A stretch of 64,000 bases of DNA from Candidatus Omnitrophota bacterium (GCA_015494465.1 WGBD01000002.1:3683-67682); one strand, 5' to 3'. Positions 11,758-60,965 are shown, numbered from the stretch's first letter. A program made the numbers and translations. Notes: generated by a model from the sequence alone, not told the origin.

Positions 11758-11809
11758 CCCCTCCTCCGGTTGGAGAATAGTATACCATAAACGCCATCTC
11801 AAAATAAGA

Positions 11810-27592: not shown

Positions 27593-27597
27593 CTACA

Positions 27598-29238: not shown

Positions 29239-29251
29239 CTTAAACCTCCTC

Positions 29252-29290
29252 AAAATAAAAAATAGAGCGTGCCTTCACCAGCTGACGCTC
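29252..29290 (-). terminator. Rho-independent terminator candidate downstream of the methyltransferase gene
   Basis: Minus strand: GAGCGT-loop-ACGCTC stem followed by UAUUUUUUAUUUUG. Confidence 0.4.
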
Positions 29291-29322
29291 CTAAATCGAA
29301 TTGGTATTATAACCAAAAACTA

Positions 29323-29982
29323 TTAGACCTTCAAGGCCTTTATTCCCACAAACCCCCCTTCCCCATGGCCGGGCCTGATGTCGTCCAGGTGGGACATAGA
29401 GGAGAGATCGGTAGTAAATAAGGTCTGGAGGGTCTCTTTCACCTCAAATCCTGTTTTCCGGAGGAGATCCATCACCTCGTTTGCAGAAAAGAACCGGGCA
29501 TAGCGGTAAAATGGGCTCCTTGCCTTCTTCTCCAAGTACACCTGGCCCAAAGGGCTTGCCTTATCCACGATCCCCACCACCAAGATCCCTCCGGGCGCAA
29601 GGACCCGGTGTATCTGCCTGAGAACCCTCTCCGGATCCTCCACGAAGCATATAGTGACCATCAAAAGGGCATAATCAAAACTGCCGTCTCCAAAGGGCAG
29701 GTCGTGGGCATCCGCAACGATCGCCTCCACCCCCCGCTCCTTAGCCAGGGCAAGCATGCCCTCGGAGATGTCCACCCCGGTCTTAATCCCCAGAGGACCG
29801 GCGAACCTGCCCGTACCCACGCCAACCTCAAGGCCTCTACCCCCCTTCGGCAAGAGCCTGCGCAGGAGCTCCAGCTCGCTGAGGTAGGCCCAACGGTTCC
29901 GCTCAAACCACTCCTCGTACTCCCCAACCCGCAAATCAAAGACCTCTCTATTACCCTCCACAGTCACTCCTCCAAGAAACAC
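29323..29982 (-). CDS. class I SAM-dependent methyltransferase (Methyltransf_11-like)
   Basis: 219 aa. LEVGVGTGRFAG (motif I), ...FDYALLMVTICFV. Apparent GTG start. Confidence 0.8.
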   Translation of the reverse strand: MFLGGVTVEGNREVFDLRVGEYEEWFERNRWAYLSELELLRRLLPKGGRGLEVGVGTGRFAGPLGIKTGVDISEGMLALAKERGVEAIVADAHDLPFGDGSFDYALLMVTICFVEDPERVLRQIHRVLAPGGILVVGIVDKASPLGQVYLEKKARSPFYRYARFFSANEVMDLLRKTGFEVKETLQTLFTTDLSSMSHLDDIRPGHGEGGFVGIKALKV

Positions 29983-29995
29983 TTCCTCAACCCAT

Positions 29996-31159
29996 TTAGG
30001 CTAGCTTCTCCTTAGCCAGCCACTTCCTATCCTTTGGATCTATCTCAGATAGGATCCCGACTATGCGCTTACCCGCATACCCATCACCGAAAGGATTGGG
30101 CAGATTTCGCACCCGCTCTCTATAGGACTCGTCAAAACAGGCCCTCTGCAAGGCCTTCGCTATTGCCTCCGCTTGATGCCCCACGAACTCCACATTTCCC
30201 GCATGAAATCTGCCAGTCTGCCTCTCACCTATATTTACCACAGGCAATTTATAGAACGGAGATTCCAAAATCCCCATGCTAGAGTTGCCCACTAACGCCC
30301 GCGCGTTTCTTAAAACATTTACGAAAATATTTTGAGAAAGATTCGGATAAAAGTGGATCAACCTGCCATCGTCAAATTCTTTTATTACCTCAATCATGTA
30401 CGAGGCTCCAGGATCTGTGTTGGGAAATATTCCCAATACCTTGAACCCCGTCTTCCGAGCAAACTCCTTAACCCCTTCCAAAGCCATTCGCATCTCCTCT
30501 CCGGCTTGTTCGTAAGACAACGAAAAGGGATGTTTTATAAACACGATGTACCCCTGAGGTTCTATATCCCACTTTAAGGCCTTTCTTACCTCCTCCCACG
30601 GCATATCGGGAACCTTACGAATACCATCCAAGGCGGGGTTTCCAACATTGAAGACCCGAAAAGGCTCCTCTCCCACCTTCAACAGATTCTCGGCCGATGG
30701 TTGAGAAGTAGCAAAGTGGAGATGCGCCAATTTCGACACCGCAAACCTTATCGGATCGTCATCAGTCAAAACAGAGGTATCTCCACCTGCGATGTGGGCT
30801 ACTATTACCTTCATATAATTACCTACCAAGGCAGTAGCAATGGACTCCTCTCTATCACCTACCACCAGGAGAAAATCCGGCGACATTCTTTCTACAGTTT
30901 GGGATAATCCTAACAACAACAGGCCAACGCCTTTCACCCTCTGCGTAGATCTATCCGTCATCAACAGGGAATCCACCTTATCCCAGATAGGGAACCCGTC
31001 TTCTATAACTGATTTCAATGTAAACCCGTGCCAAGTTGAAAGGTGGGCCCCACTGCACACAACACCAACCTCAAAGCCGGCATCCCTCAATTCCTGGAGC
31101 ACGGGACGGAGTATGTAGTATTCAGAGCGTATCCCAGTAACCGCAAGGACCTTTTTCAT
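29996..31159 (-). CDS. UDP-N-acetylglucosamine 2-epimerase family (NeuC/LegG/WecB-like, probably hydrolysing)
   Basis: 387 aa. Epimerase_2 fold, MKKVLAVTGIRSEYYILRPV...VVGDREESIATAL. GC (~48%) is lower than neighbouring core genes. Confidence 0.85.
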   Translation of the reverse strand: MKKVLAVTGIRSEYYILRPVLQELRDAGFEVGVVCSGAHLSTWHGFTLKSVIEDGFPIWDKVDSLLMTDRSTQRVKGVGLLLLGLSQTVERMSPDFLLVVGDREESIATALVGNYMKVIVAHIAGGDTSVLTDDDPIRFAVSKLAHLHFATSQPSAENLLKVGEEPFRVFNVGNPALDGIRKVPDMPWEEVRKALKWDIEPQGYIVFIKHPFSLSYEQAGEEMRMALEGVKEFARKTGFKVLGIFPNTDPGASYMIEVIKEFDDGRLIHFYPNLSQNIFVNVLRNARALVGNSSMGILESPFYKLPVVNIGERQTGRFHAGNVEFVGHQAEAIAKALQRACFDESYRERVRNLPNPFGDGYAGKRIVGILSEIDPKDRKWLAKEKLA

Positions 31160-31263
31160 AATCCTGCCATTACCTCCTGATCAGACGGGTTTTGCTCTTA
31201 CACTTCTTTCTGCATATCCCTTGACATCCTCCAGCGATAAGATAGAATTGTATAAACTCTTCG

Positions 31264-31336
31264 GCCGGGATAGCTCAGGTGGTAGAGCGCAGGCCTGAAA
31301 AGCCTGGCGTCCCCAGTTCGACTCTGGGTCCCGGCA
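31264..31336 (+). tRNA. tRNA-Phe (anticodon GAA)
   Basis: GCCGGGA-TA-GCTC AGGTGGT AGAGC-G-CAGGC CTGAAAA GCCTG-GCGTC-CCCAG TTCGACT CTGGG-TCCCGGC-A, followed by a TTTTTT tract. Confidence 0.9.
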
Positions 31337-32423
31337 CTTTTTCATTTAGGACTGCTTCCATCCACTCCCTTGCTTGGCGTATCTTTTCTCGCCATTTAGA
31401 AGTTTCAGCGAAGTGCTGATACATGGATCTTTGGATCTCCACCCTTTTATAAGGATCCTTAAACTCCGAAATGAAATCGCGCAAGTCATCCCAGTTAGAC
31501 AGGGTGCCACTGATAGAATTGTCCCAGCCACCCCAGGAAGGCAACAGAGGAATACTGCCTAATCTGAGACCCAACCACGAGAATCTATCCAATACGCCCC
31601 CTAAAAACGAGTTCTGGTCTCCCACAACCAAAACAAATTCTTTAGCCAGATTCAAGAAATCAACAAACGAACTAATAGCGAATCGCGAGACCACTTCCAA
31701 TCCAACCTTCTCCAAATGTCTTACTGCATCTTCGTACCATTCAATTTGTCTTTGGGCATGTATCTCCTCCATTACTATAAGAGATAACAAGTTCCGTCTC
31801 AAATACTCTGGAAGGAGATTCAATGCTTCCACAAAAGACCCCTGGAAGGATATCAAGTTTTTTTTGAACTCTTCTATCTCTTGGGAGATAAAGCAATAAT
31901 CGTAATCCAAGTCTTTTTTGTACCGATCGATATTCTTAACCAAAACGCTGGAACGCACCTTTAATTTCTCAGGTCTTATGGCTAATTCTGGAAAGGTATA
32001 TCCGACATCAATACACGGCTTGTGCATAAAAACTCTCATCAAATCCACATATCCTTCCTCACAAATCATCGCACCCTTAAAATTAGGGAAAAAGCGAATA
32101 GGAGAAATAAGGGCGTGTATGATGTGGAAATAATCTCCGGTAAAGATTGAAAAATACGGCACCTTCAATTCTTCCATTATCGGCTTATGGAGGATCTTGT
32201 GTTCTATAGTAAATCCCATAAAGTAGAGATCAAACCCGAGTATTGCGTCTGGTTTTTGGTCTAGGATTATTTCTCTGATTCGTTGAGTCTTGCCTTGCAG
32301 ATCACCAAATCCTTCCGAGAAACCCACGACTTGGGTATATTCAACCTCCTTTAAAGCGTTCAACCAGTCCAGATAAAGCATGTATACTTCTAAATTTGGG
32401 GGAGGAAAGAACAATATCTTCAA
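31275..32423 (-). CDS. hypothetical protein, possibly GT-B-like/CgeB-like glycosyltransferase, low GC
   Basis: 382 aa. TTG start with AAGGAGG SD immediately after the maf stop. The C-terminal ~20 codons are antisense to tRNA-Phe. No firm motif. Confidence 0.4.
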   Translation of the reverse strand: MKILFFPPPNLEVYMLYLDWLNALKEVEYTQVVGFSEGFGDLQGKTQRIREIILDQKPDAILGFDLYFMGFTIEHKILHKPIMEELKVPYFSIFTGDYFHIIHALISPIRFFPNFKGAMICEEGYVDLMRVFMHKPCIDVGYTFPELAIRPEKLKVRSSVLVKNIDRYKKDLDYDYCFISQEIEEFKKNLISFQGSFVEALNLLPEYLRRNLLSLIVMEEIHAQRQIEWYEDAVRHLEKVGLEVVSRFAISSFVDFLNLAKEFVLVVGDQNSFLGGVLDRFSWLGLRLGSIPLLPSWGGWDNSISGTLSNWDDLRDFISEFKDPYKRVEIQRSMYQHFAETSKWREKIRQAREWMEAVLNEKVPGPRVELGTPGFSGLRSTT

Positions 32424-34351
32424 AGCAGGCCCTCCTTCTCGTAGTAAGTAGTAAGCCTATCCAACAGATCTTTCACATCTTCCCCTGCCTTTATCAAGGC
32501 CTCCAATACCGCTAATATGGTCTCCAGTCTCTCCATATCCCCTACATTTGGCTTAAGCATGAAAAATTTCTTCACCATAACCATCACTGCGCCAGAAAAA
32601 TTCTGCATCAACCGCATCGCCAGGGAAAGGGAGTCGTCAAATATCTTATCTATCCAGGTATTTATTTCTAACATCTCCTCCCGGGAAAGGACGGAATCCT
32701 TTCCTTTCCTTTTGTGCAAAGAATCCAACACGGCAAACGATTCTCTACAGAGTTCCGTCAGTTTTAGTACCTGATCTTGCAGTTCCGACCAACGCCTACG
32801 AAATTCACTTTTTCTAAACCTTACATTTCTTGCTCTGGCAATTCTATGCAAATCCTTCTTAACGCGTCTTATCTCTTCTCTCTTTTCCCCAAGAATATTT
32901 AGCAATGCCTCCTTAGACACATATTCGGCACCATTTATTTTTGCGCCCTTGGTCTTGAAATCTATTATCCGCATGGGCATCACATCTATCATCCGCTCGA
33001 AGTCTCTGAGATAAGAAACGAATATATCCTCCGTTACGACTTCTCCCCCATCTACTGCCGGAACCTTTCTAGCCCAAAAATAAGAAAAAGTATCCCCCCT
33101 CCTCTTAACGAGGATCAATTGCCCTGTAGAATCTTTCACCAGCTGCAACTTTTGGTAATTAGAGGTGCCTTCTACATGTGAATTTTCGAGATCAGGATAG
33201 GAAAGATCCAACCCCAAAAACACAATCGGATTACCCCCTGCGAATACCGAGAACAAAAATGCAGTATGGGCAGTGGTTATGCCTTTGAACAACTTATACT
33301 TGAGGAAAAAGAGGTCTTCAAACAAGTGGCTATAAGCAAAAACAGTCAACGGACCTTTCCACATAGGGAGAATATCCTTATGCACATCGACCGCTGCAAC
33401 GAGTACGGTCTCTTTTAATCTATTCATATCCATCGATTCATAGTGTCGTTTATTTGCTTCAGAGAAGTCCAAACCCACTACTACATCCGGGCATATACCG
33501 GCTTTTTGGATAACAGGGACAGCGGTATCAACTGCGACAAGGATCGCCTTATCCTGATGCTCCCTCAAAAACTCGAGGTTATCTTTAAGAGAAGGCCCTG
33601 GAGCTATACAGAACACAGGCAATCCTCTAAACTGGTCGTACCACACCTCCATGCCCGGAGAATCCAGGAGAAAGGGGAAGTTGTACAACGAATTCTCTAT
33701 TTGCTGGCCAATGATAGAGACATTCGTGACTACGCATACTCGAGCATTTATGAAGCTATCCCTCACCAACGCACGGTATCGCTCTACCTCCTCCCCAAAC
33801 TGCGCGGCAATAGGAGGATAAACCACGATAAGCGGGCGGGACAATACCTTATCCACGAAAAACTTATCGTTTAGCCGATTCAAAAACTCCACATGGGACA
33901 GGCCCACCAACAACTCTACACCGTTTTCAATCCACGGCTTTATATCCCTCAAATACAGCAGGACCTTGAATAGTTCCAAATCCAACTCTACCGCAAAGAC
34001 ATTGCCCGCTAACCTCTCCTTTAATTCGTCTATGTGGTATCCTGAGCCTATCCCTATTACGTACGCATCCAAGCGATCTTTTAGATCCAGCGAATCCACC
34101 CACTTCTTGGCAGACTCCCTGGGATTATAGAGGCTGTCCAACCTTATAAGGTCCTCCCCTCTCTTGATACATATGACCGGATCACCGCTTTTGGCGGAGA
34201 GGACCTGATACTTACCGGTAAAGGAGGTCTCCTCCAACCTTTTGGCAAGGTCCCAATACTTCCTAAGGGACCGCAGTAGGGCTAGGTTATTGCGATATAA
34301 TTCCTCTCCTAATTGGATATCAATCCCAACCAGCCCTGTTTCAGCGCCCAC
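32420..34351 (-). CDS. motility accessory factor (Maf / DUF115) flagellin glycosyltransferase family protein
   Basis: 643 aa. DUF115/MptE-like core (FCIAPGPSLKDNLEFLREH...ILVAVDTAVPVIQKAGICPDVVVGLD). GTG start, ~40% GC. Confidence 0.8.
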   Translation of the reverse strand: MGAETGLVGIDIQLGEELYRNNLALLRSLRKYWDLAKRLEETSFTGKYQVLSAKSGDPVICIKRGEDLIRLDSLYNPRESAKKWVDSLDLKDRLDAYVIGIGSGYHIDELKERLAGNVFAVELDLELFKVLLYLRDIKPWIENGVELLVGLSHVEFLNRLNDKFFVDKVLSRPLIVVYPPIAAQFGEEVERYRALVRDSFINARVCVVTNVSIIGQQIENSLYNFPFLLDSPGMEVWYDQFRGLPVFCIAPGPSLKDNLEFLREHQDKAILVAVDTAVPVIQKAGICPDVVVGLDFSEANKRHYESMDMNRLKETVLVAAVDVHKDILPMWKGPLTVFAYSHLFEDLFFLKYKLFKGITTAHTAFLFSVFAGGNPIVFLGLDLSYPDLENSHVEGTSNYQKLQLVKDSTGQLILVKRRGDTFSYFWARKVPAVDGGEVVTEDIFVSYLRDFERMIDVMPMRIIDFKTKGAKINGAEYVSKEALLNILGEKREEIRRVKKDLHRIARARNVRFRKSEFRRRWSELQDQVLKLTELCRESFAVLDSLHKRKGKDSVLSREEMLEINTWIDKIFDDSLSLAMRLMQNFSGAVMVMVKKFFMLKPNVGDMERLETILAVLEALIKAGEDVKDLLDRLTTYYEKEGLL

Positions 34352-35814
34352 ATCATCTCCCCTTTGGTAAGGCCAAACCGCTCAACCAGTTCGCTAATAG
34401 ATCCCTCAAAACCGCAAGCCAACACCCTCTTAATCTTATCCCCATCCATCACATCGCGCAACCAGGGATGGAGTCCCAATCCCTTGGGGAGCAGGTCCAA
34501 ATCCCTAACTCGCAGTCTATATTTTACCCTTGCGTCAATCCTGCGCGAAGGATAAATGCGATAAAAGATCTCCCCCAAAGACCCTTTCCATTCCACGCAA
34601 TCCCTGTCCACCGACATTTCTGGCCGATACCTGCGCAATTGCTCTTCCCAAAGGCCCTCCCACGCACCTACTATCTCATTCCAACTCGGTATCTCCCGCT
34701 GGATTCCATACCTACACCTGCCTTCCAAACAATCCTCCATAGCCTGCTCCAACTCTGCCAGATCAAGCGCGATGGTACTGGCCCAGAATAGGTGGAGTTT
34801 GGGCTCGTAGGAAATGGATTCGTAGACCGCCATCTCATCCTCTATCCCCTCGACGGTAAAGGTTGGGATGAGACGGACACCTTCGTGCCCTGCCACCACA
34901 TCCCTGAAGCCTCCCCAATCGCTCACTATCACGAACAGGCCCCAGGCCAAGGCCTCCAGCACCGCTATCCCAAAGGTCTCCTGAAAGTTGTCGCTTAGCC
35001 CCAGAAAGGCATCGCTTACCGCAAACAGGGCATACTTATCCCCCTCAGCAGGATCCGGCACGATCCTAACTACATCTGAGACACCCCAAGCCTTGGCGAG
35101 ATCCTGAAGAAACCGATGATAATCACTCTCTCCAGTTGCTCCCGCAATCAGTACCAAAAAGTCCCTGCGCCTGCGGTAAATCCGATAAACCACCTTAAAC
35201 AGGCCCATGAGATCCGCCTTGGAAAACTCGGATATCCTGCCGAAAGAGAGAAAGACCGTCTTATTCGCCAATCCCAGTTCCCTCCGCAAGGCCTGGCGTC
35301 TTCTCTTGTATTCACCGATGTGGGCATTGGAGAGCCACGGGGGACCAAGGGGTATCTTCACCAACTCCGGTCCCCTAATCCCTACTCTCTCCAAGACGGC
35401 CGACATAACCCTAAAGGCACTATCCGAAGAGCAGACCACCACATCTCCTCGCTGGACATAAGGCAGGGCGGAGACGAACGAACGAATGAGGTGGGGATAA
35501 CTTAAAGAATGGGTAAAGGCACACACAGGAAATCGCAATGCCAGACGATCCCTCAAACGCAAGACTCCAGCCCAGTCCAGATCGGGCTGATAGACTACCG
35601 CATCTCCAAAAGGCAACCCTGGAAGCGACTCCCGAGGCAGGATTTCAAACCTACCCCTTTTCATCCAGTCCGCTACAGAACCAGGGTAGGGGATTAACAG
35701 GGACCTCCGCCCCAGTTTCTTGGAATACCTACCCAATGCCCGAAAAAACCACTCGTTGGCAATAGACCTCCCTTGCAAAATAGGCGGAGAGTCCCAGAAG
35801 GATATCCAGTTCAT
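34309..35814 (-). CDS. glycosyltransferase family 4 (GT-B, Glycos_transf_1)
   Basis: 501 aa. ETFGIAVLEALAWGLFVIVSDWGGFRDVV is the E-x7-E GT4 signature. Confidence 0.8.
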   Translation of the reverse strand: MNWISFWDSPPILQGRSIANEWFFRALGRYSKKLGRRSLLIPYPGSVADWMKRGRFEILPRESLPGLPFGDAVVYQPDLDWAGVLRLRDRLALRFPVCAFTHSLSYPHLIRSFVSALPYVQRGDVVVCSSDSAFRVMSAVLERVGIRGPELVKIPLGPPWLSNAHIGEYKRRRQALRRELGLANKTVFLSFGRISEFSKADLMGLFKVVYRIYRRRRDFLVLIAGATGESDYHRFLQDLAKAWGVSDVVRIVPDPAEGDKYALFAVSDAFLGLSDNFQETFGIAVLEALAWGLFVIVSDWGGFRDVVAGHEGVRLIPTFTVEGIEDEMAVYESISYEPKLHLFWASTIALDLAELEQAMEDCLEGRCRYGIQREIPSWNEIVGAWEGLWEEQLRRYRPEMSVDRDCVEWKGSLGEIFYRIYPSRRIDARVKYRLRVRDLDLLPKGLGLHPWLRDVMDGDKIKRVLACGFEGSISELVERFGLTKGEMMWALKQGWLGLISN

Positions 35815-36224
35815 GCAATCTGCTCTTCCAGAGACCCCTGAACCGCGGGTTCGGATTCCTGCTTCAAGGCCTTGAGGCCCTCTTCCCAGGCAGAGACCAA
35901 GGGCTCGAGGAGAGAAATCACTTCTTCTAAGATGGCAGGATCCCTTCTCAGATTCGCTTCGATCGTCCGACGATAACAGAAGTTGTATAAGGCCCTGAAG
36001 TTATCTGCCAGTTCACCCGCCTCATCGTTCAAGCCCAAGGTCAACTCCGACAGCAATCTCCTTGCCCGGAATATCTTCTCCCCACAGGAGGGATAATCCC
36101 CACGCTTCATATCTTCTTTCGCCCCTTCCAAGTATCTTACGATTCCCCTATAAGCCAGAATCACCGCCTCCTGGGGCGTTGCGGTCTCCATCTTCACCTT
36201 CTTGTAGGCCTTCCATGGATTCAT
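35811..36224 (-). CDS. fliS: flagellin-specific chaperone FliS
   Basis: 137 aa. Four-helix FliS-like pattern (ILAYRGIVRYLEGAKEDM...) and position directly downstream of fliD. Confidence 0.7.
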   Translation of the reverse strand: MNPWKAYKKVKMETATPQEAVILAYRGIVRYLEGAKEDMKRGDYPSCGEKIFRARRLLSELTLGLNDEAGELADNFRALYNFCYRRTIEANLRRDPAILEEVISLLEPLVSAWEEGLKALKQESEPAVQGSLEEQIA

Positions 36225-36236
36225 AGGCTCCCCCCT

Positions 36237-39200
36237 TTATTTAGTAGCAGTTATCCCCTGCGCCTGCGATGCCAACCACGAACTCAGGGCATTCATCTGT
36301 CCCAGCAATTCCTCCATGCGGGTAAACTGTCTATACAAGAACTCTCGCCGTTTGTCCAACCGGGCCTGCAGGTTCTTTATCTGATAATCGTAGACATCGA
36401 CATTTTCCTCTATGTTGTTTATCTCCCCGGCGATCAAGCCCACTTCCGGATCGGTGAGATAGGCCAGGCGATTGTTTACTCTCAGCCCCACCCCTCGGGC
36501 CTCAGTGGCCTCCAGTTCCACGATCCGGGCATAGCCGTCTTCACCCTCCAGACCGTAGAGCCGAATCTTATCCGTATAATAAGGAAGGGTGAAGAAGTGC
36601 AGGATCTCCGACTTGGTATTACCGCTCACCACCCGATAGTCGTTCCACTTGTCGTTATACCAGTACTGAAGCCTGTATCCGGTGAGCCGTTTGCCCGTCT
36701 CCGAGAGGGTGTGCACCCTAATCTTGTACAGGGAAACCCTCCGGGCGAAGTCCACCTCAAACCAGGCCCCGGTCTCGCCGTTTATCCCATTCATCCAACC
36801 GTTGGAATCAGGGCCAAACTCATCCTCTGAGGTGTTCCCGTTGATGGCCCTGGAGGGAGAATATCCCGAGGCAGTAGAAGAGGCGGAGGCGACTCCTCCG
36901 TTATCCCCCAAGGCCATGTTGACCTCGTAATTGAATAGCCTTGCAACCGCCTCTGGATCCTCCTTGAGTTTGCTCACCAACTTGGACTCGTCCAGACTAA
37001 GGTGCCCCTCGGAATCAAAGGATATACCAACCGCAGATATGTGGTTCATGTCCGAAGGCAGGCCCTCCACTGCACTGGTAACCATGGAGTACAACTCGTT
37101 CTGGAGGTTCATCAGGGCGACATTTCCCAACAGTACCCCGGCCTCTTTGGTCTCCGGGTTATACGCCATCTGCTCGGCGATGTAGTCCACGATGTCGTTA
37201 TAGGTATCTATGAACTGGTTCACCGCACTGACTACATCCTCGGTGTTCTGCTCCACCTTCACCGTCACCGGGGTGTCGCTGGTGGATATCAGGTGCAGGG
37301 TAAGGCCCTGTATCGCATTCTCCACATCGTTGGAACTGCTCACGATGGACACGCCGTTTTCACCCCCAACCAGAACCAACGCATCCACTGGATCTATCGC
37401 AGTAGAAAAGGAGAGGTCGTTAAGGGTAGAATAGGCCACCAACTGCCCCCGGGTCCCGCTGAACTTGCTGGACAATACGAGCTTATAGGGGTTCACTCCC
37501 GAGCCGTCGTTCAATACGAAGGCGTTGAACCTGTCGCTTACATCCGCGGAGTTGATGGCATTGGCCACATCGGACAGGGTGTCGTTCTCCCCTATGGTGA
37601 TGGTCCAGGAGAAGGCACCGTCGTAACCGGTGTTAGCGATACCCTCGGTCTCCTCTATGCCCAAGGACTGAGAGACAGCGTTGTCGTCTACATATATCCT
37701 GCCTTCCTGACCGGTGGTGTCCTTTATTACCAAGCCCCGACCGTCCTCTGCGACCCTTGCGGACAGGCCAATCCCTGCGGAATTAATCTTGTCCACTATG
37801 TCCGCCAAAGAACGGTCCACGGTGGTTACGCTTATCGTAGCAGTACTTCCTGACCTGTCAGTGACGGTGAATGATCCGGTGGTGATTCCCGAAAAGTCGT
37901 TGAGACTCAAGAGGATCCTATCACCAAGCCTGCCAATCAAATCCCCACCGTTCAAGGTGGCAGAGGAGACGCTCTTCGCAAGGCCCAGGTCCTCAGCAGC
38001 ACTCGATCCGTTTATACTCTCAACAGACAGACTCCCGGTCCCTCCGGTATTGTCGGTGATAACGATGTACATGCCGTCGGAGGAAAGGGAGGCGGAGACT
38101 TTGCCCCCGTTGTCCGCATCGTTGTTTATCGCCGATATCACATCTCCGATAGTAGAGACGCCGTCCAGATTCACATCTATCAGCGAACCGTCTCTGGCAG
38201 TAATCCTCAGGTCGTCCAGCCCGGCAACGGTGCCTAAGCCCTTACCGTCCGCCACTACACTTACCGCAGTAGTAGAACTAACATACAGTATCTGGTCCCC
38301 GGTAAGGACCGTCCCCGAAGCAGATACATTCAACCCCAAGGAGTTTGCCGCACCGTCCCCTTCGTTAACGGTCAATGTGCCCGTGCCACCGGCGTTATCC
38401 GTCAGTTTCAACCGCAAGCCATCGGAATCAAACTCCGCCTGAACCTGCAGGGCGGTGTTGCCGTTTATCGTCTCCAGCACATCCTGTATCGTCCGGGCGC
38501 CGGATATGTCTATGGTGGCAGAATAACCCGCGGAGTTGGTGATAACGAACCACGACCCCGAGACCCCTGAAAATCCGTTCAGGGAATCCAGCATCCTGTC
38601 GTCCACATCGCTCAAGATGGGCTTGCCAGATATGGTGGAGGAATTTATCCCCGAGGCATTGAGGATACCGAGATCCTCAGCGGTCGTGGAATCCAGATCC
38701 TCCACCTTAAAGGCACCTCCCCCACCGGATGTGTCCACGAGGTCTATTGCGTTTCCCGTGACATCTATGGTGGCGGTAACCGATATATTCGTATTGCTGT
38801 TGATTGCGGACAAGACATCCTGAATCGTCGTGGCGCTGGTCAGATCTATCGTCGCGGAATTGCCCGCCCTATCGGTTATCCTTATGTGCCCACCCGCCAC
38901 GCCAAGGCCGTCGTTTAGACGAGAGAGCAATGTGGCGGTGGTGACGTAGGCAAGATCGTCCCCGTGTTTCTGCTGTTCCTCAGAGGTGGCACCGTATATG
39001 TTCAGGTCTTTGGCCATCCTACCGCCTGCCAGATCCTCTATTCTCAACGGGCTGGTCTCCTCACCGGTGAGGTCCACGACCACTATACCGTCTCCGGTGT
39101 CGTTCACCCGGGCCAATACGGAGACACCGCTCGCGGAGTTGATAGCGGATATGACATCGCCAATCGTCTTTATGTCGCTGGAGGTCAGGTCTATGCTCAC

Positions 39201-40706
39201 GCTATTGCCTGCCCTGTCGGTTATCTTGATGCGCCCCTTTTGTACCCCCGTCCCGCCGTTTAAGGAATCCAAGCGAGTGTATTCGGAGATGAACTGAAGG
39301 TGCACATCGCTTCCCTCTATAACCCCTGAGGAACTGCTTCCCAGGATCCCCAGATCGCTGGCAGTCGTACCACCCGCCTCGCTGACCACCAGCGGGCCAG
39401 TTCCTCCGGAGGTATCGGTTATCCTTATGCCGGTGCGTGCACTGTTAATCTCTGCCTGAACGGATATCCCCGAGGCAGAGTTTATCGCCGAGAGGACATC
39501 CGAAAGGGTCTCCGCAGAACTTATGTCTATGGTAGCAACCGCTCCCGAACGATCCTGTATCACGAACCTACCCAGATCCACGCCTCGACCACCGTTGAAA
39601 CGGGAGAGGAGGACATCGTTTAGCCCGGCTATAAGAGCCCTGCCAACGACTGAAGATGTGGCATAGGTGCCAGAAAGACCGAGATCCTCGGCGGTATAAC
39701 TGGAGTTCAGACTCTCTATAGTAAGATTACCGCTTCCCCCGGTGTTATCCGTAAGCTCCAGACGATTCCCGTCAGAGGAGATCTGGACCACCACCTTGCC
39801 CGCATTGCCCGAGGCATTGTTTATCGCGGAGATCACATCTCCCACCGTCTCCGCATTGCCTATGTCCACCTCTATCACCGATCCATCCCGGGCAGTAATC
39901 CGCAAGTCTGCCCCCGAGGAGTACCTGCGCACACCGGTATTCTCGTTCAACAGCTCCAGTGCGGTGGTCTCTACTATGTCGTTTACATCGCTTCCGACGA
40001 TCTGCGTCCCGGAGGTGCTCCCCAGTATCCCCAAGGACTGCGCAGTATTCCCACCCGAGACCTCCTCTACTACCAACAGACCGGAACCACCCGAGGTATC
40101 CGTCAGGACGAGCCTGTCCCCGTCCACACTGGCGGTCACCTGCACGGTGTTATTCCTGTTTATCGCCTCCACCACATCCTCTACGGTTATGGCCCTTGAC
40201 AAATCTATCGTGGCGGAGTGCCCCGCCTTATCGGTAATCTTTATACTCCCCCTGCTAAACCCTGATTGACCGTTCAGGAAGGCCAAGGGGGTCTCCTTAT
40301 CTACATATCCACCCAATTTTATAGTAAGGGTGCCGGAACCTACCGTAGAGGAACTGTCTGCAAATCCCGAACTCATCAACTGATGGGTGCTGGCGAGTTG
40401 TTTCACGACCAGCTGATAGTTTCCGACCTGGGCATTTGCGTTGGCGGTGGCGGTCAGGACCGATTCGTTGCTGGAGGAGACATCCTTTACCCTGTAGAGG
40501 GTCGGGCGGGCCAACGCGTAAGCCTGGAGCTTAAATGTGAGCAACTTCGTCTGTATAGTGCGCCAGGCCTCTTTCTTCTTGAGTTCCAGTTCCCGTTTGG
40601 CCTGAAGCAGTTTGAGCGGATAACTCTCTAACTCTATAAGCTGATCGACTATGTTCTGGGTGTCCAGACCCGAAACTATCCCCGAAATACTGCTAGTGCC
40701 CGGCAT
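36237..40706 (-). CDS. fliD: flagellar filament cap protein FliD (hook-associated protein 2), giant 1489-aa form
   Basis: N-terminal SGLDTQNIVDQLIELESYPL (FliD_N). C-terminal ...NLQARLDKRREFLYRQFTRMEELLGQMNALSSWL (FliD_C). The central part holds ~9 tandem ~95-aa repeats with (I/L)xITDxAGxSxTIDLSxAxTxxDVxxAINSASG...LxLTDxSGGxG (flagellin IN motif). A discoidin-like segment (YSPSRAINGNTSEDEFGPDSNGWMNGINGETGAWFEVDF...YARIVELEA) is inserted before the C-terminal helix. Confidence 0.85.
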   Translation of the reverse strand: MPGTSSISGIVSGLDTQNIVDQLIELESYPLKLLQAKRELELKKKEAWRTIQTKLLTFKLQAYALARPTLYRVKDVSSSNESVLTATANANAQVGNYQLVVKQLASTHQLMSSGFADSSSTVGSGTLTIKLGGYVDKETPLAFLNGQSGFSRGSIKITDKAGHSATIDLSRAITVEDVVEAINRNNTVQVTASVDGDRLVLTDTSGGSGLLVVEEVSGGNTAQSLGILGSTSGTQIVGSDVNDIVETTALELLNENTGVRRYSSGADLRITARDGSVIEVDIGNAETVGDVISAINNASGNAGKVVVQISSDGNRLELTDNTGGSGNLTIESLNSSYTAEDLGLSGTYATSSVVGRALIAGLNDVLLSRFNGGRGVDLGRFVIQDRSGAVATIDISSAETLSDVLSAINSASGISVQAEINSARTGIRITDTSGGTGPLVVSEAGGTTASDLGILGSSSSGVIEGSDVHLQFISEYTRLDSLNGGTGVQKGRIKITDRAGNSVSIDLTSSDIKTIGDVISAINSASGVSVLARVNDTGDGIVVVDLTGEETSPLRIEDLAGGRMAKDLNIYGATSEEQQKHGDDLAYVTTATLLSRLNDGLGVAGGHIRITDRAGNSATIDLTSATTIQDVLSAINSNTNISVTATIDVTGNAIDLVDTSGGGGAFKVEDLDSTTAEDLGILNASGINSSTISGKPILSDVDDRMLDSLNGFSGVSGSWFVITNSAGYSATIDISGARTIQDVLETINGNTALQVQAEFDSDGLRLKLTDNAGGTGTLTVNEGDGAANSLGLNVSASGTVLTGDQILYVSSTTAVSVVADGKGLGTVAGLDDLRITARDGSLIDVNLDGVSTIGDVISAINNDADNGGKVSASLSSDGMYIVITDNTGGTGSLSVESINGSSAAEDLGLAKSVSSATLNGGDLIGRLGDRILLSLNDFSGITTGSFTVTDRSGSTATISVTTVDRSLADIVDKINSAGIGLSARVAEDGRGLVIKDTTGQEGRIYVDDNAVSQSLGIEETEGIANTGYDGAFSWTITIGENDTLSDVANAINSADVSDRFNAFVLNDGSGVNPYKLVLSSKFSGTRGQLVAYSTLNDLSFSTAIDPVDALVLVGGENGVSIVSSSNDVENAIQGLTLHLISTSDTPVTVKVEQNTEDVVSAVNQFIDTYNDIVDYIAEQMAYNPETKEAGVLLGNVALMNLQNELYSMVTSAVEGLPSDMNHISAVGISFDSEGHLSLDESKLVSKLKEDPEAVARLFNYEVNMALGDNGGVASASSTASGYSPSRAINGNTSEDEFGPDSNGWMNGINGETGAWFEVDFARRVSLYKIRVHTLSETGKRLTGYRLQYWYNDKWNDYRVVSGNTKSEILHFFTLPYYTDKIRLYGLEGEDGYARIVELEATEARGVGLRVNNRLAYLTDPEVGLIAGEINNIEENVDVYDYQIKNLQARLDKRREFLYRQFTRMEELLGQMNALSSWLASQAQGITATK
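37680..40260 (-). repeat. about 9 tandem in-frame coding repeats (~285 nt each) inside fliD encoding flagellin-IN motif modules
   Basis: Recurrent AINRNN/AINNASG/AINSASG/AINSASG/AINSNTN/TINGNT/AINNDAD/KINSAG/AINSAD anchors with conserved ITDRAGNS.TIDL and LTDNTGGTG blocks. The approximate span is derived from amino-acid positions 150-1010. Confidence 0.6.
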
Positions 40707-40723
40707 AGCGCCCCTCTTTAGAT

Positions 40724-41107
40724 TTATAGGTACCTATCTAGTATCAACCCCAAGGCGTTGTGTATCCTCAATAGGGCCTCTATCAACTGCTCCGGTGGAA
40801 CCGTGGTTATCGTCTCGTTGGTCCTAGGGTTTATCACCTCAACATATGCAAGATCCGTGCCACCTACGAAGAGGTGAAACCTAAGATCCTTCTGGAGGCT
40901 CTTCATTATCTCGTTGAGCTGTTTGATGATGTCCTCCATAGCGCTCATTGCATCCTTCTTGAAGGCAGATAAGAGCTCCTTCTCCCGTTCGGATAGCCCT
41001 GATTCCGCAACCGAGAATCCCTTTGTAAATGTCTCTTTGAGGTGTTCGAAGTAGCGCTCCACACCGGGCATGTCAGGATTAAAATTGTTTATCCCGTTGG
41101 TCTCCAT
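40724..41107 (-). CDS. flaG: flagellar protein FlaG
   Basis: 127 aa. ...LRFHLFVGGTDLAYVEVINPRTNETITTVPPEQLIEALLRIHNALGLILD matches the FlaG family C-terminal consensus. It lies between flagellin and fliD, as in Bacillus and Campylobacter-type loci. Confidence 0.75.
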   Translation of the reverse strand: METNGINNFNPDMPGVERYFEHLKETFTKGFSVAESGLSEREKELLSAFKKDAMSAMEDIIKQLNEIMKSLQKDLRFHLFVGGTDLAYVEVINPRTNETITTVPPEQLIEALLRIHNALGLILDRYL

Positions 41108-41201
41108 CTCCGCTCACCCCTTTATTATCCGTTTTTAAAACCTTTCGGTTTTAGGAGAGGGGCTAGCAGGGAACCTTCCCTGCCGCCCCTTTATGTCGTA
41201 C

Positions 41202-42602
41202 TTATCCCAACAACTGCAAGATAGCCTGAGGTGCGACGTTTGCGTGGGCAAGCATCGCAGTACCTGCCTGCATCAGTATCTGGAGCCTGGTGAACTCCAC
41301 CATCTCCTTTGCCATATCCACATCCCGGATACGGCTCTCAGAGGACTGGATGTTCTCACGGGTGACACCCAAGTTGGATATGGTGCTCTCCAAGGTGTTC
41401 TTCTGGAAGGCACCAAGGGTTGCCCTCTGAGTGGAGACGTCGTTTATCGCCTCGTCGATTATCTGCACTGCCATCGCTGCGTTGTTGGTCAGGTCGTAGG
41501 TGCCACCGGACTTGATGGCCAACAGACCCTGAGAACCAGCGGTGCTGGTGCCCAGCTGATTGGCCCTCATGGAGTTGATGGAGATGGTGGCTATCTCGTT
41601 GCTGTCCGCATTGGCACCGAGCACGAACCGGAGCAGACCAGCGGTCACATAGATGTCGTACTGAGGATGCGTACCGGTGGTATTGTAGCCCTCGTTGATG
41701 GTTATGGTCATGTTCTTGAAGGTCCCAGTCGCAGCTATGAGGGTCAGACCGCTACCGGTAGCAGATCCCCCGTGGATGGTACCCGCTATGTCCTGACCGA
41801 CATCAGCAGCTACACCCCCGCTTACCGCAGACCCGGTGACCACCAAAGAGGCCTCGGTACCGTAGGCTACCGTCTTTATAAAGATGTAATCCGTACCGGA
41901 TCCACCAGCGGAAGTCCATGCGATCACCCCACTAACAGTGGCATTTATCGCTGAGACGATCTGTCCAGCACTATAAGAACTGGCAATGTCGACCGTAACA
42001 CCGTTTATGACCAGATCACCGTATCCCCAAGCACTGGTTGCTCCCGTACCCAACGATACCAACGCCTGAGATGCCTTTTGAGTGATCTGATAGGACACAA
42101 ATCCGGTGCTCGCATAGTTACCGATGCTCGCAGCCACAACCCTATTGCTGTTCTTTATCTCCACCGAGTTACCGGCTGCACCGTTGAGGAGGTACTTACC
42201 GGCGTACTTGGTGGTGTTGGCGATCCTGTCGATGGAGTCCACCGCCGAATCCACCTGTGCCTGGTCGGCAGCAATGGCCTCGGCATCGTTAGCACCTTCG
42301 TTGGCTGCGTGAAGTGCCAATGCCCGGATGGAGTTCAACAGGGTGTTCATCTCGGTCAAGGCACCTTCCGCAGTCTGCACCATGGAGATCGCGTCCTCAG
42401 CGTTGCGGATCGCCTGGTCCAGACCGACGATGTTGGCACGCAGTTTCTCGGAAATGACCAGACCTGCCGGATCGTCCCCGGCGCGATTGATACGATAACC
42501 AGAGGAGAGTTTCTCCAGAGACTTGCGTATTGCGCTGTCCGTCTTGGTGAGGTTCCACCACGCGTTGAGCGCTGCGATGTTGTGGTTAATCCTTACTCCC
42601 AT
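41202..42602 (-). CDS. fliC: flagellin
   Basis: 466 aa. Flagellin_N (INHNIAALNAWWNLTKTDSAIRKSLEKLSSGYRINRAGDDPAGL) and Flagellin_C (...LAHANVAPQAILQLLG). The variable central domain is rich in Ser/Thr/Gly, so it is a plausible O-glycosylation target. Confidence 0.95.
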   Translation of the reverse strand: MGVRINHNIAALNAWWNLTKTDSAIRKSLEKLSSGYRINRAGDDPAGLVISEKLRANIVGLDQAIRNAEDAISMVQTAEGALTEMNTLLNSIRALALHAANEGANDAEAIAADQAQVDSAVDSIDRIANTTKYAGKYLLNGAAGNSVEIKNSNRVVAASIGNYASTGFVSYQITQKASQALVSLGTGATSAWGYGDLVINGVTVDIASSYSAGQIVSAINATVSGVIAWTSAGGSGTDYIFIKTVAYGTEASLVVTGSAVSGGVAADVGQDIAGTIHGGSATGSGLTLIAATGTFKNMTITINEGYNTTGTHPQYDIYVTAGLLRFVLGANADSNEIATISINSMRANQLGTSTAGSQGLLAIKSGGTYDLTNNAAMAVQIIDEAINDVSTQRATLGAFQKNTLESTISNLGVTRENIQSSESRIRDVDMAKEMVEFTRLQILMQAGTAMLAHANVAPQAILQLLG

Positions 42603-42756
42603 CTTCTGCCTCCTTGCAGTTTAACCCCACTTTAGCGTCCCTGCTAAAGCCAAGGCTGAATATTTGTATAGCGGTCCAGCCTCCAGACCGCTTGCCTCTT
42701 TGGTGCGCCCCTTTTTACCGACTATCACCCCCCTTCTTCAAAGAACTCTACTATAT

Positions 42757-42783
42757 TTATCGTCGCTGTAGGGAAAAACTTTA
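42757..42783 (-). promoter_or_regulatory. sigma28 (FliA)-type promoter for flagellin
   Basis: Minus strand TAAAGTTT-N11-GACGATAA (consensus TAAAGTTT-N11-GCCGATAA), ~155 nt upstream of the flagellin ATG. Confidence 0.7.
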
Positions 42784-42932
42784 GTTTTTTAGGATCGGCG
42801 AGGGGAAATGGGCACAGGCACCCTTTATCACCCAGCAATACGAGAAGTCACATAAGATCTATCATCCGGATTTAAAGCAAAACATACTGGGAGGCAAGGG
42901 GTTATGTCTTAACGAAAGAGAGCCACGAACGA

Positions 42933-54627: not shown

Positions 54628-54650
54628 CCCCCTCAGCGCGAATGAGGGGA
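54628..54650 (-). terminator. hairpin (7-bp stem CCCCTCA/TGAGGGG) at the gspH-like stop codon, weak terminator candidate
   Basis: A perfect inverted repeat overlaps the stop codon. The U-tract is displaced (GUGUCAACUUUUUU), so efficiency is uncertain. Confidence 0.3.
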
Positions 54651-60961: not shown

Positions 60962-60965
60962 AACA

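What the first reader, a model, noticed from the sequence alone, without database searches (positions are those of the whole stretch)
29323..35814. Lower-GC flagellin-glycosylation island split by tRNA-Phe (Maf + GT4 + CgeB-like ORF + NeuC/LegG-like epimerase + methyltransferase)
The four ORFs at 29996-35814 drop to about 40-48% GC against ~58% in flanking genes. They sit immediately downstream of fliS/fliD/flaG/flagellin. They encode a DUF115 motility-accessory-factor protein, a GT4 transferase, an uncharacterised GT-B-like protein and a hydrolysing-type UDP-GlcNAc 2-epimerase, plus the SAM methyltransferase at 29323-29982 outside the low-GC span. A tRNA is embedded in the block. This is the hallmark of horizontally acquired flagellin O-glycosylation loci. 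The usual pse/leg nonulosonate synthesis genes (PseB/C/H/I/F) are not present in the window. So the sugar made here may be different or partly encoded elsewhere.
Basis: partly seen in the sequence, partly recalled or inferred. Interest (0 to 1): 0.6.

Follow-up and report, generated by a model that had tools for sequence, protein, structure and literature searches.

The report
Flagellin sugar-coating genes, conserved, not island
This is a fairly ordinary set of genes for attaching sugars to the flagellar filament protein in an uncultured Omnitrophota-type bacterium; the genes and the tRNA among them are an old, conserved part of the flagellar operon, not a recently acquired island, although part of the block has an odd composition and its own history.

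Summary
GT4 glycosyltransferase, Maf (DUF115/MptE-like; model matches the solved Maf 5MU5), a NeuC/LegG-type hydrolysing 2-epimerase, a SAM methyltransferase and tRNA-Phe(GAA) all pass profile or fold tests.

The GC drop is real but narrower. The stretch 29996-34351 is 45.3% GC against 54.1% elsewhere, 6 SD below equal-sized windows. Only three ORFs are low; GT4 is 53.3%. Flanks are about 54%, not 58%.

The "tRNA-marked acquired island" reading does not hold. Nine related loci, mostly labelled Candidatus Omnitrophota, carry the same flagellin-flaG-giant fliD-fliS-GT4-Maf-ORFx array. Where the contig reaches it, they also carry a near-identical antisense tRNA-Phe. There is no integrase and no att-like repeat.

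The 382-aa ORF belongs to a clade-restricted orphan family with a GT-B-like predicted fold. It always lies just downstream of Maf.

The low GC and a Maf-specific tree conflict suggest that a lower-GC relative replaced the Maf-to-NeuC segment.

No NeuB, CMP-synthetase or Pse/Leg genes occur in the window, so the sugar is unresolved.

Verdict: an ordinary kind of system and a new member, with modest interest.

The parts
41202..42602 (-). Flagellin (466 aa), the presumed glycosylation target
   Evidence: Flagellin_N and Flagellin_C domains. The central domain is 22% Ser+Thr. It is 72-91% identical to the flagellin of relatives.
40724..41107 (-). flaG
   Evidence: PF03646 at 46.3 bits.
36237..40706 (-). 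Giant fliD filament cap (1489 aa) with an F5/8 type C domain
   Evidence: FliD_N, FliD_C, Flagellin_IN and F5_F8_type_C domains. Length is conserved at 1487-1495 aa in relatives.
35811..36224 (-). fliS flagellin chaperone; its stop codon overlaps the GT4 start (ATGA)
   Evidence: PF02561 at 106.7 bits; TIGR00208 above its cut-off. Junction sequence read.
34309..35814 (-). GT4-family glycosyltransferase (501 aa) with normal GC
   Evidence: PF00534 at 60.8 bits and PF13692. E279 and E287 are invariant, giving E-x7-E spacing. GC is 0.533. The gene tree agrees with FliD.
32420..34351 (-). Maf (motility accessory factor, 643 aa), the presumed flagellin nonulosonate transferase; overlaps GT4 by 43 nt
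   Evidence: PF01973 at 111.9 bits. The model has pLDDT 84.6. Its top PDB match is 5MU5, a Maf glycosyltransferase, at E 1e-19 and TM 0.54. GC is 0.454.
31275..32423 (-). ORFx (382 aa), an orphan GT-B-like protein. Its TTG start overlaps the Maf stop (TTGA). About its last 20 codons are antisense to tRNA-Phe.
   Evidence: No Pfam or NCBIfam hit. Only 6 clusters match among 1.84e9 representatives. The model has pLDDT 80 and pTM 0.82. Foldseek hits are GT-B enzymes. Homologues end near residue 358-362.
31264..31337 (+). tRNA-Phe(GAA), convergent with the operon and native to the clade
   Evidence: ARAGORN. Rfam 65.8 bits. 73 of 74 aligned positions are invariant in 8 lineages.
31221..31248 (+). 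Sigma-70-like promoter (TTGACA-16-TAGAAT) just upstream of tRNA-Phe
   Evidence: Best-scoring site (11 of 12) in 27000-43200. Consensus match only.
29996..31159 (-). NeuC/LegG-type hydrolysing UDP/GDP-HexNAc 2-epimerase (387 aa)
   Evidence: TIGR03568 at 335.7 bits against a cut-off of 235.9. Best PDB matches are 5XVS and 5ZLR, a hydrolysing diacetylbacillosamine 2-epimerase, at 191 bits. GC is 0.480.
29323..29982 (-). Class I SAM methyltransferase (219 aa), 13 nt downstream of NeuC, with normal GC. Its link to the glycan is inferred only.
   Evidence: PF08241 at 84.9 bits. GC is 0.573 and GC3 is 0.70. It is not specifically related to the methyltransferases of the Leg cluster in L018 or the Maf locus in L019.
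29947..33611 (.). Low-GC3 segment from the maximum-likelihood change-point fit. By plain GC the low block is 29996-34351.
   Evidence: GC3 is 0.489 inside and 0.649 outside, with a log-likelihood gain of 36. GC is 0.453 against 0.541 for the rest.

Best explanation
The region is the tail of the flagellar filament operon of an uncultured bacterium whose relatives are labelled Candidatus Omnitrophota. The source is GCA_027052805.1, contig JALUEM010000003.1.

Shown:
- flagellin-flaG-fliD-fliS-GT4-maf-orfX are co-directional.
- The last four genes are translationally coupled by overlapping stop and start codons.
- The array runs head-on into the clade's own tRNA-Phe gene.
- Beyond the tRNA lie a NeuC/LegG-type hydrolysing 2-epimerase and a methyltransferase.

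Inferred mechanism, from what is established for Maf proteins in Aeromonas, Clostridium, Campylobacter and Magnetospirillum:
- Maf transfers a CMP-activated sialic-acid-like nonulosonate to Ser/Thr of the flagellin central domain in the cytoplasm, before export.
- GT4, and possibly ORFx, either extend that glycan or assist Maf.
- The epimerase makes the free 2-acetamido-manno-hexose that a NeuB/LegI-type synthase condenses with PEP.
- That synthase and the CMP-transferase must be encoded outside this window.

History:
- The module and the tRNA are ancestral to the clade.
- The low-GC stretch, from Maf to NeuC, is best explained by replacement of the resident segment. The donor would be a lower-GC member of the same clade, acting by recombination.
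- This happened before the split from the L001 lineage and was followed by partial amelioration.
For: Function:
- Profile hits are above curated cut-offs for Maf, GT4, NeuC, FliS, FliD and flagellin.
- The Maf model matches 5MU5 along its full length.
- The best solved relative of NeuC is a LegG-type hydrolysing epimerase.
- Epimerases 59-64% identical to this one sit with a PIG-L gene (L017) or inside a complete Leg-type cluster with NeuB and a CMP-transferase (L018).
- The flagellin central domain is 22% Ser/Thr.
- Published abstracts describe Maf as the flagellin nonulosonate glycosyltransferase (PMC4065374, PMC11339370). They also describe extra glycosyltransferases that extend the glycan (PMC7874193).

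Ancestry:
- Gene order is identical in L001, L003, L005, L007, L009, L010, L011, L012 and L020.
- A complete tRNA-Phe was called in seven of these loci and is near-identical. L020 ends inside it and L009 ends before it.
- Every ORFx family member with known context lies just after Maf.

Replacement:
- The block is 6 SD below equal-sized windows in GC.
- GC3 steps from 0.53 to 0.70 across the 13-nt NeuC/methyltransferase gap.
- In bootstrapped neighbour-joining trees, {window, L010, L020} is monophyletic in 100% of replicates for FliD, 100% for GT4 and 68% for FliS. For Maf the figure is only 4% (similar).
- In L020, another GC-enriched lineage at 50% GC, Maf and ORFx have the same GC3 as FliD. 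These genes therefore do not lag intrinsically.
- The same low-GC pattern is seen in L001, which is 79-91% identical at the protein level. The event therefore predates that split.
Against: - No NeuB, CMP-synthetase, dehydratase, aminotransferase or acetyltransferase is present in 64 kb, nor in 10 kb beyond one end of the window. The donor sugar is therefore unverified.
- No activity has been tested.
- ORFx supports the species-like grouping only ambiguously, at 59%.
- No donor lineage has been sampled. The nearest foreign Maf is about 50% identical.
- Maf and ORFx are 3-7 GC points below their surroundings in low-GC relatives as well. Part of the deficit is therefore gene-intrinsic.
- The GC3 change-point lies inside Maf, yet the two halves of Maf show no difference in relatedness.
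- The trees are neighbour-joining on only 7 taxa.
Confidence: 0.6

Rival explanations
1. This is a genomic island acquired from outside the lineage and integrated next to tRNA-Phe, bringing flagellin glycosylation as a new trait.
For: The block is low in GC and GC3. A tRNA gene lies inside it. The gene content on the far side of the tRNA varies among relatives.
Against: The same array and the same tRNA occur in all relatives examined, including low-GC genomes with little or no compositional anomaly. There is no integrase in or beside the block; the only tyrosine recombinase, at 57293-58183, lies about 21 kb beyond the block. The tRNA 3' end is not repeated. ORFx exists only in this clade. GT4 is compositionally and phylogenetically native.
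Confidence: 0.07
2. No transfer occurred. The genes were inherited vertically, evolve fast and are intrinsically AT-biased (weak expression, relaxed codon selection). They therefore lagged behind when this lineage's genome GC rose from about 42% to 54%. The Maf tree conflict is then an artefact of saturation.
For: Maf and ORFx are 3-7 GC points below their surroundings in L003, L005 and L007. GC3 declines gradually along the operon: 0.67, 0.65, 0.61, 0.52, 0.47. Maf identities among four lineages are star-like at 46-50%. ORFx weakly keeps the species-like grouping.
Against: GC3 steps sharply between NeuC and the methyltransferase 13 nt downstream, which are probably co-transcribed. In L020, also GC-enriched, Maf and ORFx do not lag. 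GT4 evolves as fast as Maf (29-47% identity) yet gives 100% support for the species-like grouping, against 4% for Maf.
Confidence: 0.28
3. NeuC and the methyltransferase do not serve the flagellin. They belong to another pathway, such as cell-surface polysaccharide synthesis or general metabolism, and only happen to lie beyond the tRNA.
For: They form a separate transcription unit beyond a convergent tRNA. They run on into unk551-nusA-infB with short gaps. The methyltransferase has native GC and no specific relative in glycosylation clusters.
Against: In L005, a five-gene sugar cassette (SDR, aminotransferase, WbqC, NeuC, PIG-L) occupies the same position beside the tRNA; L010 begins the same way, with the orthologous SDR gene, before its contig ends. 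The L005 NeuC is 63% identical to the window's. NeuC shares the low-GC signature of Maf and ORFx.
Confidence: 0.15

Closest known systems
Maf-type flagellin nonulosonate glycosylation: Aeromonas caviae Maf1, Clostridium botulinum CbMaf, Campylobacter Maf/PseD family, Magnetospirillum magneticum Maf (PDB 5MU5)
   Same: It has the MptE-like/DUF115 catalytic core. The predicted full-length architecture matches 5MU5. The gene lies next to flagellin and fliS. A NeuC/LegG-type epimerase is nearby.
   Different: Sequence identity to the solved Maf is only about 13%. The protein is far below the PseD model cut-off (59 bits against 670). The gene is translationally coupled inside the fliS operon. There are no poly-G tracts of the Campylobacter kind. 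No nonulosonate synthase or CMP-transferase lies nearby.
Flagellin glycosylation islands carrying extra glycosyltransferases: Aeromonas FGI with Fgi-1 (PMC7874193) and the Geobacillus FGI (PMC5109656)
   Same: Additional glycosyltransferase genes sit beside Maf, between the flagellar filament genes and the sugar-synthesis genes. The sugar-gene content varies between lineages.
   Different: Here the accessory proteins are a 500-aa GT4 with a C-terminal extension of about 170 aa, and an orphan GT-B-like family (ORFx) found only in this clade. A conserved antisense tRNA-Phe is part of the locus.
Legionaminic-acid-type biosynthesis clusters (LegB/C/H/G/I/F), as in locus L018
   Same: The window epimerase is 59% identical to the epimerase in such a cluster. 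The cassette in relative L005 matches part of it gene by gene: 40, 50, 30, 62 and 47% identity.
   Different: The window keeps only the epimerase. The dehydratase, aminotransferase, WbqC, PIG-L, NeuB, NTP-transferase and CMP-transferase are absent from all 64 kb.
tRNA-associated genomic islands
   Same: There is a compositionally deviant block next to a tRNA gene, with variable gene content on one side of it.
   Different: There is no integrase and no att repeat. The tRNA and its neighbours are syntenic across the whole clade. Recombination, if it occurred, looks homologous (allelic replacement) and not site-specific.

Membership tests
Maf (motility accessory factor) flagellin glycosyltransferase | MptE-like/DUF115 domain (PF01973) above the gathering score | tested here: met
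   111.9 bits against a cut-off of 34.6, residues 220-387.
Maf (motility accessory factor) flagellin glycosylation | Full-length three-domain fold of a solved Maf | tested here: met
   The AlphaFold model (pLDDT 84.6) has 5MU5 as its top PDB hit, at E 1e-19 and TM 0.54-0.55 over 709 alignment columns. The next hits are only MptE/HPPK cores.
Maf (motility accessory factor) flagellin glycosyltransferase | Genomic linkage to flagellin and fliS | tested here: met
   The gene is in the same co-directional array, two genes after fliS. This is conserved in 9 related loci.
Maf (motility accessory factor) flagellin glycosyltransferase | Nonulosonate synthase and CMP-nonulosonate synthetase available in the genome | tested here: inconclusive
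   Both are absent from the 64-kb window and from 10 kb beyond one end. The other roughly 485 kb of the 559-kb contig, and the other contigs of the assembly, could not be searched.
Maf (motility accessory factor) flagellin glycosyltransferase | Transfer of a CMP-nonulosonate to flagellin Ser/Thr | not testable with these tools
   This needs biochemistry or glycoproteomics.
PseD (Campylobacter/Helicobacter flagellin modification protein, NF050051) | Score above the NCBIfam cut-off | tested here: not met
   59 bits against a cut-off of 670. It is a Maf-family member, not a PseD orthologue.
NeuC/NnaA/LegG hydrolysing 2-epimerase | TIGR03568 equivalog score above the cut-off and better than the non-hydrolysing WecB model | tested here: met
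   335.7 bits (cut-off 235.9) against 107.2 for wecB (cut-off 210). The best PDB relatives are the hydrolysing 5XVS and 5ZLR.
NeuC/NnaA/LegG hydrolysing 2-epimerase | Substrate identity (UDP-GlcNAc versus UDP/GDP-diacetylbacillosamine) | not testable with these tools
   Homologues at 54-64% identity carry both names. Context in the window gives no dehydratase or aminotransferase.
GT4 glycosyltransferase (Glycos_transf_1) | PF00534 above the cut-off, and an E-x7-E motif | tested here: met
   60.8 bits against a cut-off of 26.4. E279 and E287 are invariant in 7 orthologues.
GT-B glycosyltransferase / CgeB-like (for the 382-aa ORFx) | Profile match to a glycosyltransferase or CgeB family | tested here: not met
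   No Pfam or NCBIfam hit for any of 7 family members, even at E up to 5. There is no PDB sequence hit. hhalign against the neighbouring GT4 gives probability 0.5%.
GT-B glycosyltransferase / CgeB-like (for the 382-aa ORFx) | Two-Rossmann-domain GT-B fold | tested here: inconclusive
   All top Foldseek PDB hits are GT-B enzymes (UGTs, BshA, UDP-GlcNAc 2-epimerases), with E from 1e-6 to 1e-3 and probability about 1. TM-scores are only 0.28-0.46. The C-terminal half has just three predicted strands.
tRNA-integrated genomic island | Integrase gene in or beside the island | tested here: not met
   There is none in 27598-43838. The only tyrosine recombinase in the window (PF00589, with a SAM-like N-terminal domain) is at 57293-58183.
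tRNA-integrated genomic island | Direct repeat of the tRNA 3' end at the far border | tested here: not met
   The 20-nt 3' end of the tRNA occurs once in the window, allowing up to 3 mismatches.
tRNA-integrated genomic island | Patchy presence among close relatives | tested here: not met
   GT4-Maf-ORFx is present in all nine related loci. The tRNA is present wherever the contig reaches it.
tRNA-integrated genomic island | Deviant base composition | tested here: met
   45.3% against 54.1% GC. GC3 is 0.47-0.53 against 0.68 +/- 0.046.

The most novel reading that the evidence does not exclude
The invariant 74-nt tRNA-Phe gene that closes the flagellar filament operon may act as a fixed homology anchor. 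Around it, Omnitrophota lineages would swap flagellin-glycosylation cassettes: Maf-ORFx alleles on one side and sugar-synthesis sets on the other. This would diversify the flagellar surface. On this reading ORFx is a new, clade-specific partner of Maf. It would be a degenerate GT-B protein acting as an adaptor or as a second transferase, so that the glycan or its mode of attachment differs from known Maf systems.
Probability: 0.2. Interest if true: 0.5.

Novelty: new member of a known kind. Interest (0 to 1): 0.3.

Why it matters
It extends Maf-type flagellin glycosylation to an uncultured phylum, Omnitrophota. I found no description of it there: a full-text search for Omnitrophota with flagellin and glycosylation listed no such paper among its top results.

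It defines a small orphan protein family (ORFx) that is strictly coupled to Maf. That family is a concrete candidate for a new Maf accessory factor.

It is also a cautionary case. Low GC plus an embedded tRNA looked like an acquired island, yet comparative genomics shows a conserved locus. At most, a relative replaced one segment. None of this changes current understanding of flagellin glycosylation.

Tried and rejected
- **CgeB or other known family for ORFx.** Pfam and NCBIfam gave nothing, even at E up to 5 for all 7 family members. There was no PDB sequence match and no profile-profile link to the adjacent GT4. Rejected.
- **att-like repeat of the tRNA 3' end.** None found.
- **Campylobacter-style phase-variable homopolymer tracts in maf.** There are no G or C runs of 7 or more in the block.
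- **Mosaic Maf (native N-terminal third, foreign remainder).** The GC3 change-point suggested this. Segment-wise identities to the sister and non-sister lineages do not differ. Not supported.
- **The window methyltransferase as the orthologue of methyltransferases in a Leg cluster (L018) or beside a distant Maf (L019).** Only generic SAM-motif similarity was found: 29-32% identity over 72-86 aa. Not supported.
- **Hidden or decayed NeuB, NeuA or Pse/Leg genes in the window.** A six-frame tblastn with a complete set hit only NeuC.
- **Walking beyond the window.** Only one end could be extended by 10 kb, and it held no sugar genes.
- **Scans that yielded little.** The ORFx alignment was too divergent for a metagenome scan. 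The Maf scans of genome and metagenome collections yielded only 4 and 2 loci.
- **Spurious matches.** The TAL-effector hits of Maf in the PDB sequence search are weak, repetitive matches and were ignored.

Full report
**1. What is in the sequence**

All large genes from 21.6 to 53.4 kb lie on the - strand. In order of transcription the array is:
- flagellin (41202-42602)
- flaG (40724-41107)
- a 1489-aa fliD (36237-40706)
- fliS (35811-36224)
- a 501-aa GT4 glycosyltransferase (34309-35814)
- a 643-aa Maf protein (32420-34351)
- a 382-aa ORF with no family, here called ORFx (31275-32423)
- tRNA-Phe(GAA) on the opposite strand (31264-31337)
- a 387-aa NeuC/LegG-type epimerase (29996-31159)
- a 219-aa SAM methyltransferase (29323-29982)
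- a 551-aa secreted protein of unknown family, followed by nusA-infB-valS

The assignments pass curated thresholds:
- Maf: PF01973, 111.9 bits against 34.6.
- GT4: PF00534, 60.8 bits against 26.4.
- Epimerase: TIGR03568 NeuC_NnaA, 335.7 bits against 235.9, and only 107 bits for the non-hydrolysing WecB model.
- FliS, FliD and flagellin all pass clearly.

The tRNA is genuine: ARAGORN calls it and Rfam scores it at 65.8 bits. The best sigma-70-like promoter match in 16 kb sits just upstream of it.

fliS, GT4, maf and orfX are linked by overlapping stop and start codons: ATGA, a 43-nt overlap, and TTGA. They therefore form one translationally coupled unit.

**2. The compositional observation**

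The GC drop is real but narrower than reported.
- The stretch 29996-34351 is 45.3% GC, against 54.1% for the rest of the window.
- 510 equal-sized windows elsewhere average 54.3 +/- 1.5%, and none is below 50.3%.
- Per gene, NeuC, ORFx and Maf are 48.0, 42.3 and 45.4% GC. Their GC3 values are 0.53, 0.47 and 0.52.
- Forty-eight other genes average GC3 0.68 +/- 0.046, with a minimum of 0.545.
- GT4 (53.3%, GC3 0.61) and the methyltransferase (57.3%, GC3 0.70) are not low.
- Flanks are about 54%, not 58%.

A change-point fit on third codon positions places the low segment at 29947-33611. One edge is sharp, at the NeuC/methyltransferase junction. The other edge lies inside Maf, near codon 247.

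**3. Is it an acquired island marked by a tRNA?**

Comparison with relatives says no.

ORFx has only one close homologue in 5.8 billion proteins. An exhaustive HMMER search of 1.84 billion cluster representatives found six clusters in total.

Fetching the contigs that encode ORFx and Maf homologues gave nine related loci. Those that carry an organism label are called Candidatus Omnitrophota MAGs, except one labelled Planctomycetia. The window itself comes from GCA_027052805.1, contig JALUEM010000003.1.

Each related locus carries the same array, as far as its contig reaches: flagellin-flaG-giant fliD-fliS-GT4-Maf-ORFx.

An antisense tRNA-Phe is present wherever the contig reaches it.
- In L020 the contig ends inside the tRNA.
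- L009 ends before the position where it would lie.
- The tRNA is identical at 73 of 74 aligned positions across eight lineages, counting the window.
- It lies either directly after ORFx (six lineages, counting the window) or between GT4 and Maf (L007 and L012).

No integrase lies near the block. The 3' end of the tRNA is not repeated in the window.

The module and the tRNA are therefore an ancestral, syntenic part of the flagellar filament locus of this clade.

**4. What then explains the low GC?**

The relatives have genome-local GC of 39-50%. The window lineage, at 54%, is the GC-rich extreme.

Three observations favour replacement of the Maf-to-NeuC segment by the homologous segment of a lower-GC clade member.
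- *A sharp step in GC3.* GC3 rises from 0.53 to 0.70 across the 13-nt gap between NeuC and the methyltransferase. These two genes are probably co-transcribed, so expression-linked codon bias is an unlikely cause.
- *A gene-tree conflict.* In bootstrapped neighbour-joining trees the window groups with L010 and L020 in 100% of replicates for FliD and GT4, and in 68% for FliS. For Maf the figure is only 4%, and for ORFx 59% (an earlier run gave a similar result). GT4 diverges as fast as Maf, so speed of evolution alone does not explain the conflict.
- *No lag in a comparable lineage.* In L020, another GC-enriched lineage at 50% GC, Maf and ORFx have the same GC3 as FliD. These genes therefore do not lag intrinsically.

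The same low-GC pattern is present in L001, whose proteins are 79-91% identical. The event is therefore older than that split.

Several points count against replacement.
- Maf and ORFx are 3-7 GC points below their neighbours in low-GC relatives too.
- The ORFx tree is ambiguous.
- No donor has been sampled; the nearest foreign Maf is about 50% identical.
- The change-point inside Maf is not mirrored by any difference in relatedness between the two halves of Maf.

I put replacement at roughly twice the likelihood of a purely vertical, lagging history.

**5. The individual proteins**

*Maf.* An AlphaFold model (pLDDT 84.6) has as its top PDB match the Maf glycosyltransferase of Magnetospirillum magneticum (5MU5). 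The match has E 1e-19 and TM 0.54 over the full length, far ahead of the next hits. The protein is not a PseD orthologue: it scores 59 bits against a cut-off of 670.

*Epimerase.* Its best solved relatives are hydrolysing GDP/UDP-diacetylbacillosamine 2-epimerases (5XVS and 5ZLR, 191 bits). Human GNE follows at 149 bits. The protein is 54-64% identical to homologues from many phyla, and no closer foreign relative exists.

*ORFx.* The model is confident (pLDDT 80, pTM 0.82). All of its significant PDB matches are GT-B enzymes, namely plant UGTs, BshA and UDP-GlcNAc 2-epimerases. TM-scores are only 0.28-0.46, and the C-terminal half is reduced to three predicted strands. There is no Pfam, NCBIfam or PDB sequence similarity, and no profile-profile similarity to the adjacent GT4. 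Invariant residues include D279, R287 and G289. Whether these correspond to the E-x7-E motif of GT4 enzymes is unverified. ORFx is therefore a clade-restricted, GT-B-like protein whose catalytic competence is unknown. The label 'CgeB-like' is not supported.

*The ORFx tail.* In the window and in L001, ORFx has no stop codon at the usual position and reads about 20 codons into the antisense tRNA gene. That tail is absent from all other homologues and is predicted to be disordered. In the other lineages with this layout, the stop codon lies 2-5 nt from the tRNA 3' end.

**6. Which sugar?**

The window contains no nonulosonate synthase, CMP-transferase, 4,6-dehydratase, aminotransferase, acetyltransferase, WbqC or PIG-L gene. 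This rests on Pfam scans of all larger ORFs. It also rests on a six-frame tblastn with a complete Leg-type gene set, which hit only NeuC.

The relatives are informative.
- In L005 the tRNA is followed by SDR, aminotransferase, WbqC, NeuC and PIG-L genes.
- L010 begins the same way, with an SDR gene 53% identical to that of L005, before its contig ends.
- That cassette matches, gene by gene (40, 50, 30, 62 and 47% identity), part of a complete Leg-type cluster in an unrelated contig, L018. L018 also has NeuB, an NTP-transferase and a CMP-transferase.
- The window lineage keeps only the epimerase at this site. L003, L011, L007 and L012 have none of these genes here.

A hydrolysing epimerase releases a free sugar, which is useful only as a substrate for a NeuB-type synthase. 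That is established knowledge of the Neu and Leg pathways. The remaining genes are therefore inferred to lie elsewhere in the genome, but this could not be checked.

With no dehydratase or aminotransferase at hand, a Neu5Ac-like product is as plausible as a legionaminic-acid-like one.

The role of the methyltransferase is unproven. It has native composition and no specific relative in glycosylation clusters.

**7. How it most likely works**

The following is inference from the Maf literature (PMC4065374, PMC11339370, PMC7874193; abstracts seen).
- Flagellin has a central domain that is 22% Ser/Thr. It is O-glycosylated in the cytoplasm by Maf, using a CMP-nonulosonate donor.
- GT4, and perhaps ORFx, extend the glycan or help Maf engage its substrate.
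- The operon ends against a convergent, probably strongly transcribed tRNA gene.

**8. Novelty and verdict**

This is a known kind of system, a Maf-type flagellin glycosylation locus, in a phylum where I found no description of it. The top results of a full-text search for Omnitrophota with flagellin and glycosylation included no such paper.

It has one new accessory family and a tidy example of a conserved tRNA inside the locus. The GC figures were somewhat off, and the 'acquired island' inference is not supported as stated. Interest is modest.

Noticed in passing
window 36237-40706 (-): fliD encodes a 1489-aa filament cap, two to three times the usual length. About 900 aa of weakly beta-grasp/ubiquitin-like repeats lie between FliD_N and FliD_C, and an F5/8 type C (discoidin, lectin-like) domain is inserted in FliD_C. 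The length (1487-1495 aa) and 59-81% identity are conserved in all relatives.
   Followed up: partly
window 27598-29253 (-): A 551-aa protein with an N-terminal signal-peptide-like segment has no Pfam or NCBIfam hit. It ends 5 nt before the nusA start, the position where many bacteria carry rimP (from general knowledge, not checked here). It is also present in L001 at 80% identity.
   Followed up: no
window 31275-31337, both strands: ORFx has no stop codon at the usual position and reads 63 nt into the antisense strand of the tRNA-Phe gene. This adds a tail of about 20 residues that is predicted to be disordered. The same is seen in L001 but in no other lineage.
   Followed up: yes
window 7995-9299 (-): A periplasmic binding protein gene (Peripla_BP_6) is the only other clearly low-GC gene in the window (GC 0.463, GC3 0.545). 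It may have a foreign history of its own.
   Followed up: no
L003 11309-12781; L011 10468-11991; L007 1-1189; L017 6577-8004: An unusual fusion of 475-507 aa combines a biotin/lipoyl-attachment domain with a hexapeptide-repeat acyltransferase. It recurs next to the flagellar locus, or next to a NeuC-PIG-L pair, in relatives. In L017 it sits beside E1 alpha/beta dehydrogenase subunits. It is not present in the window.
   Followed up: no
L003, L005, L009, L010, L020 versus the window: Lineages whose flagellins are 84-91% identical and whose FliD proteins are 72-81% identical span 39-54% GC. Base composition has therefore shifted very fast within this clade.
   Followed up: partly
L012 (CAYXYY010000030.1): This MAG is labelled 'uncultured Planctomycetia'. 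It carries the same Omnitrophota-type locus, with 83% FliD identity to L007. The taxonomic label or the binning may be wrong.
   Followed up: no
window 59276-62675 (-), 54633-55157 and 11290-11802: Two tandem PilB/T2SSE-type ATPase genes, prepilin-type N-methyl proteins and a PEP-CTERM protein (53570-54439) occur in the same window as the flagellar genes.
   Followed up: no
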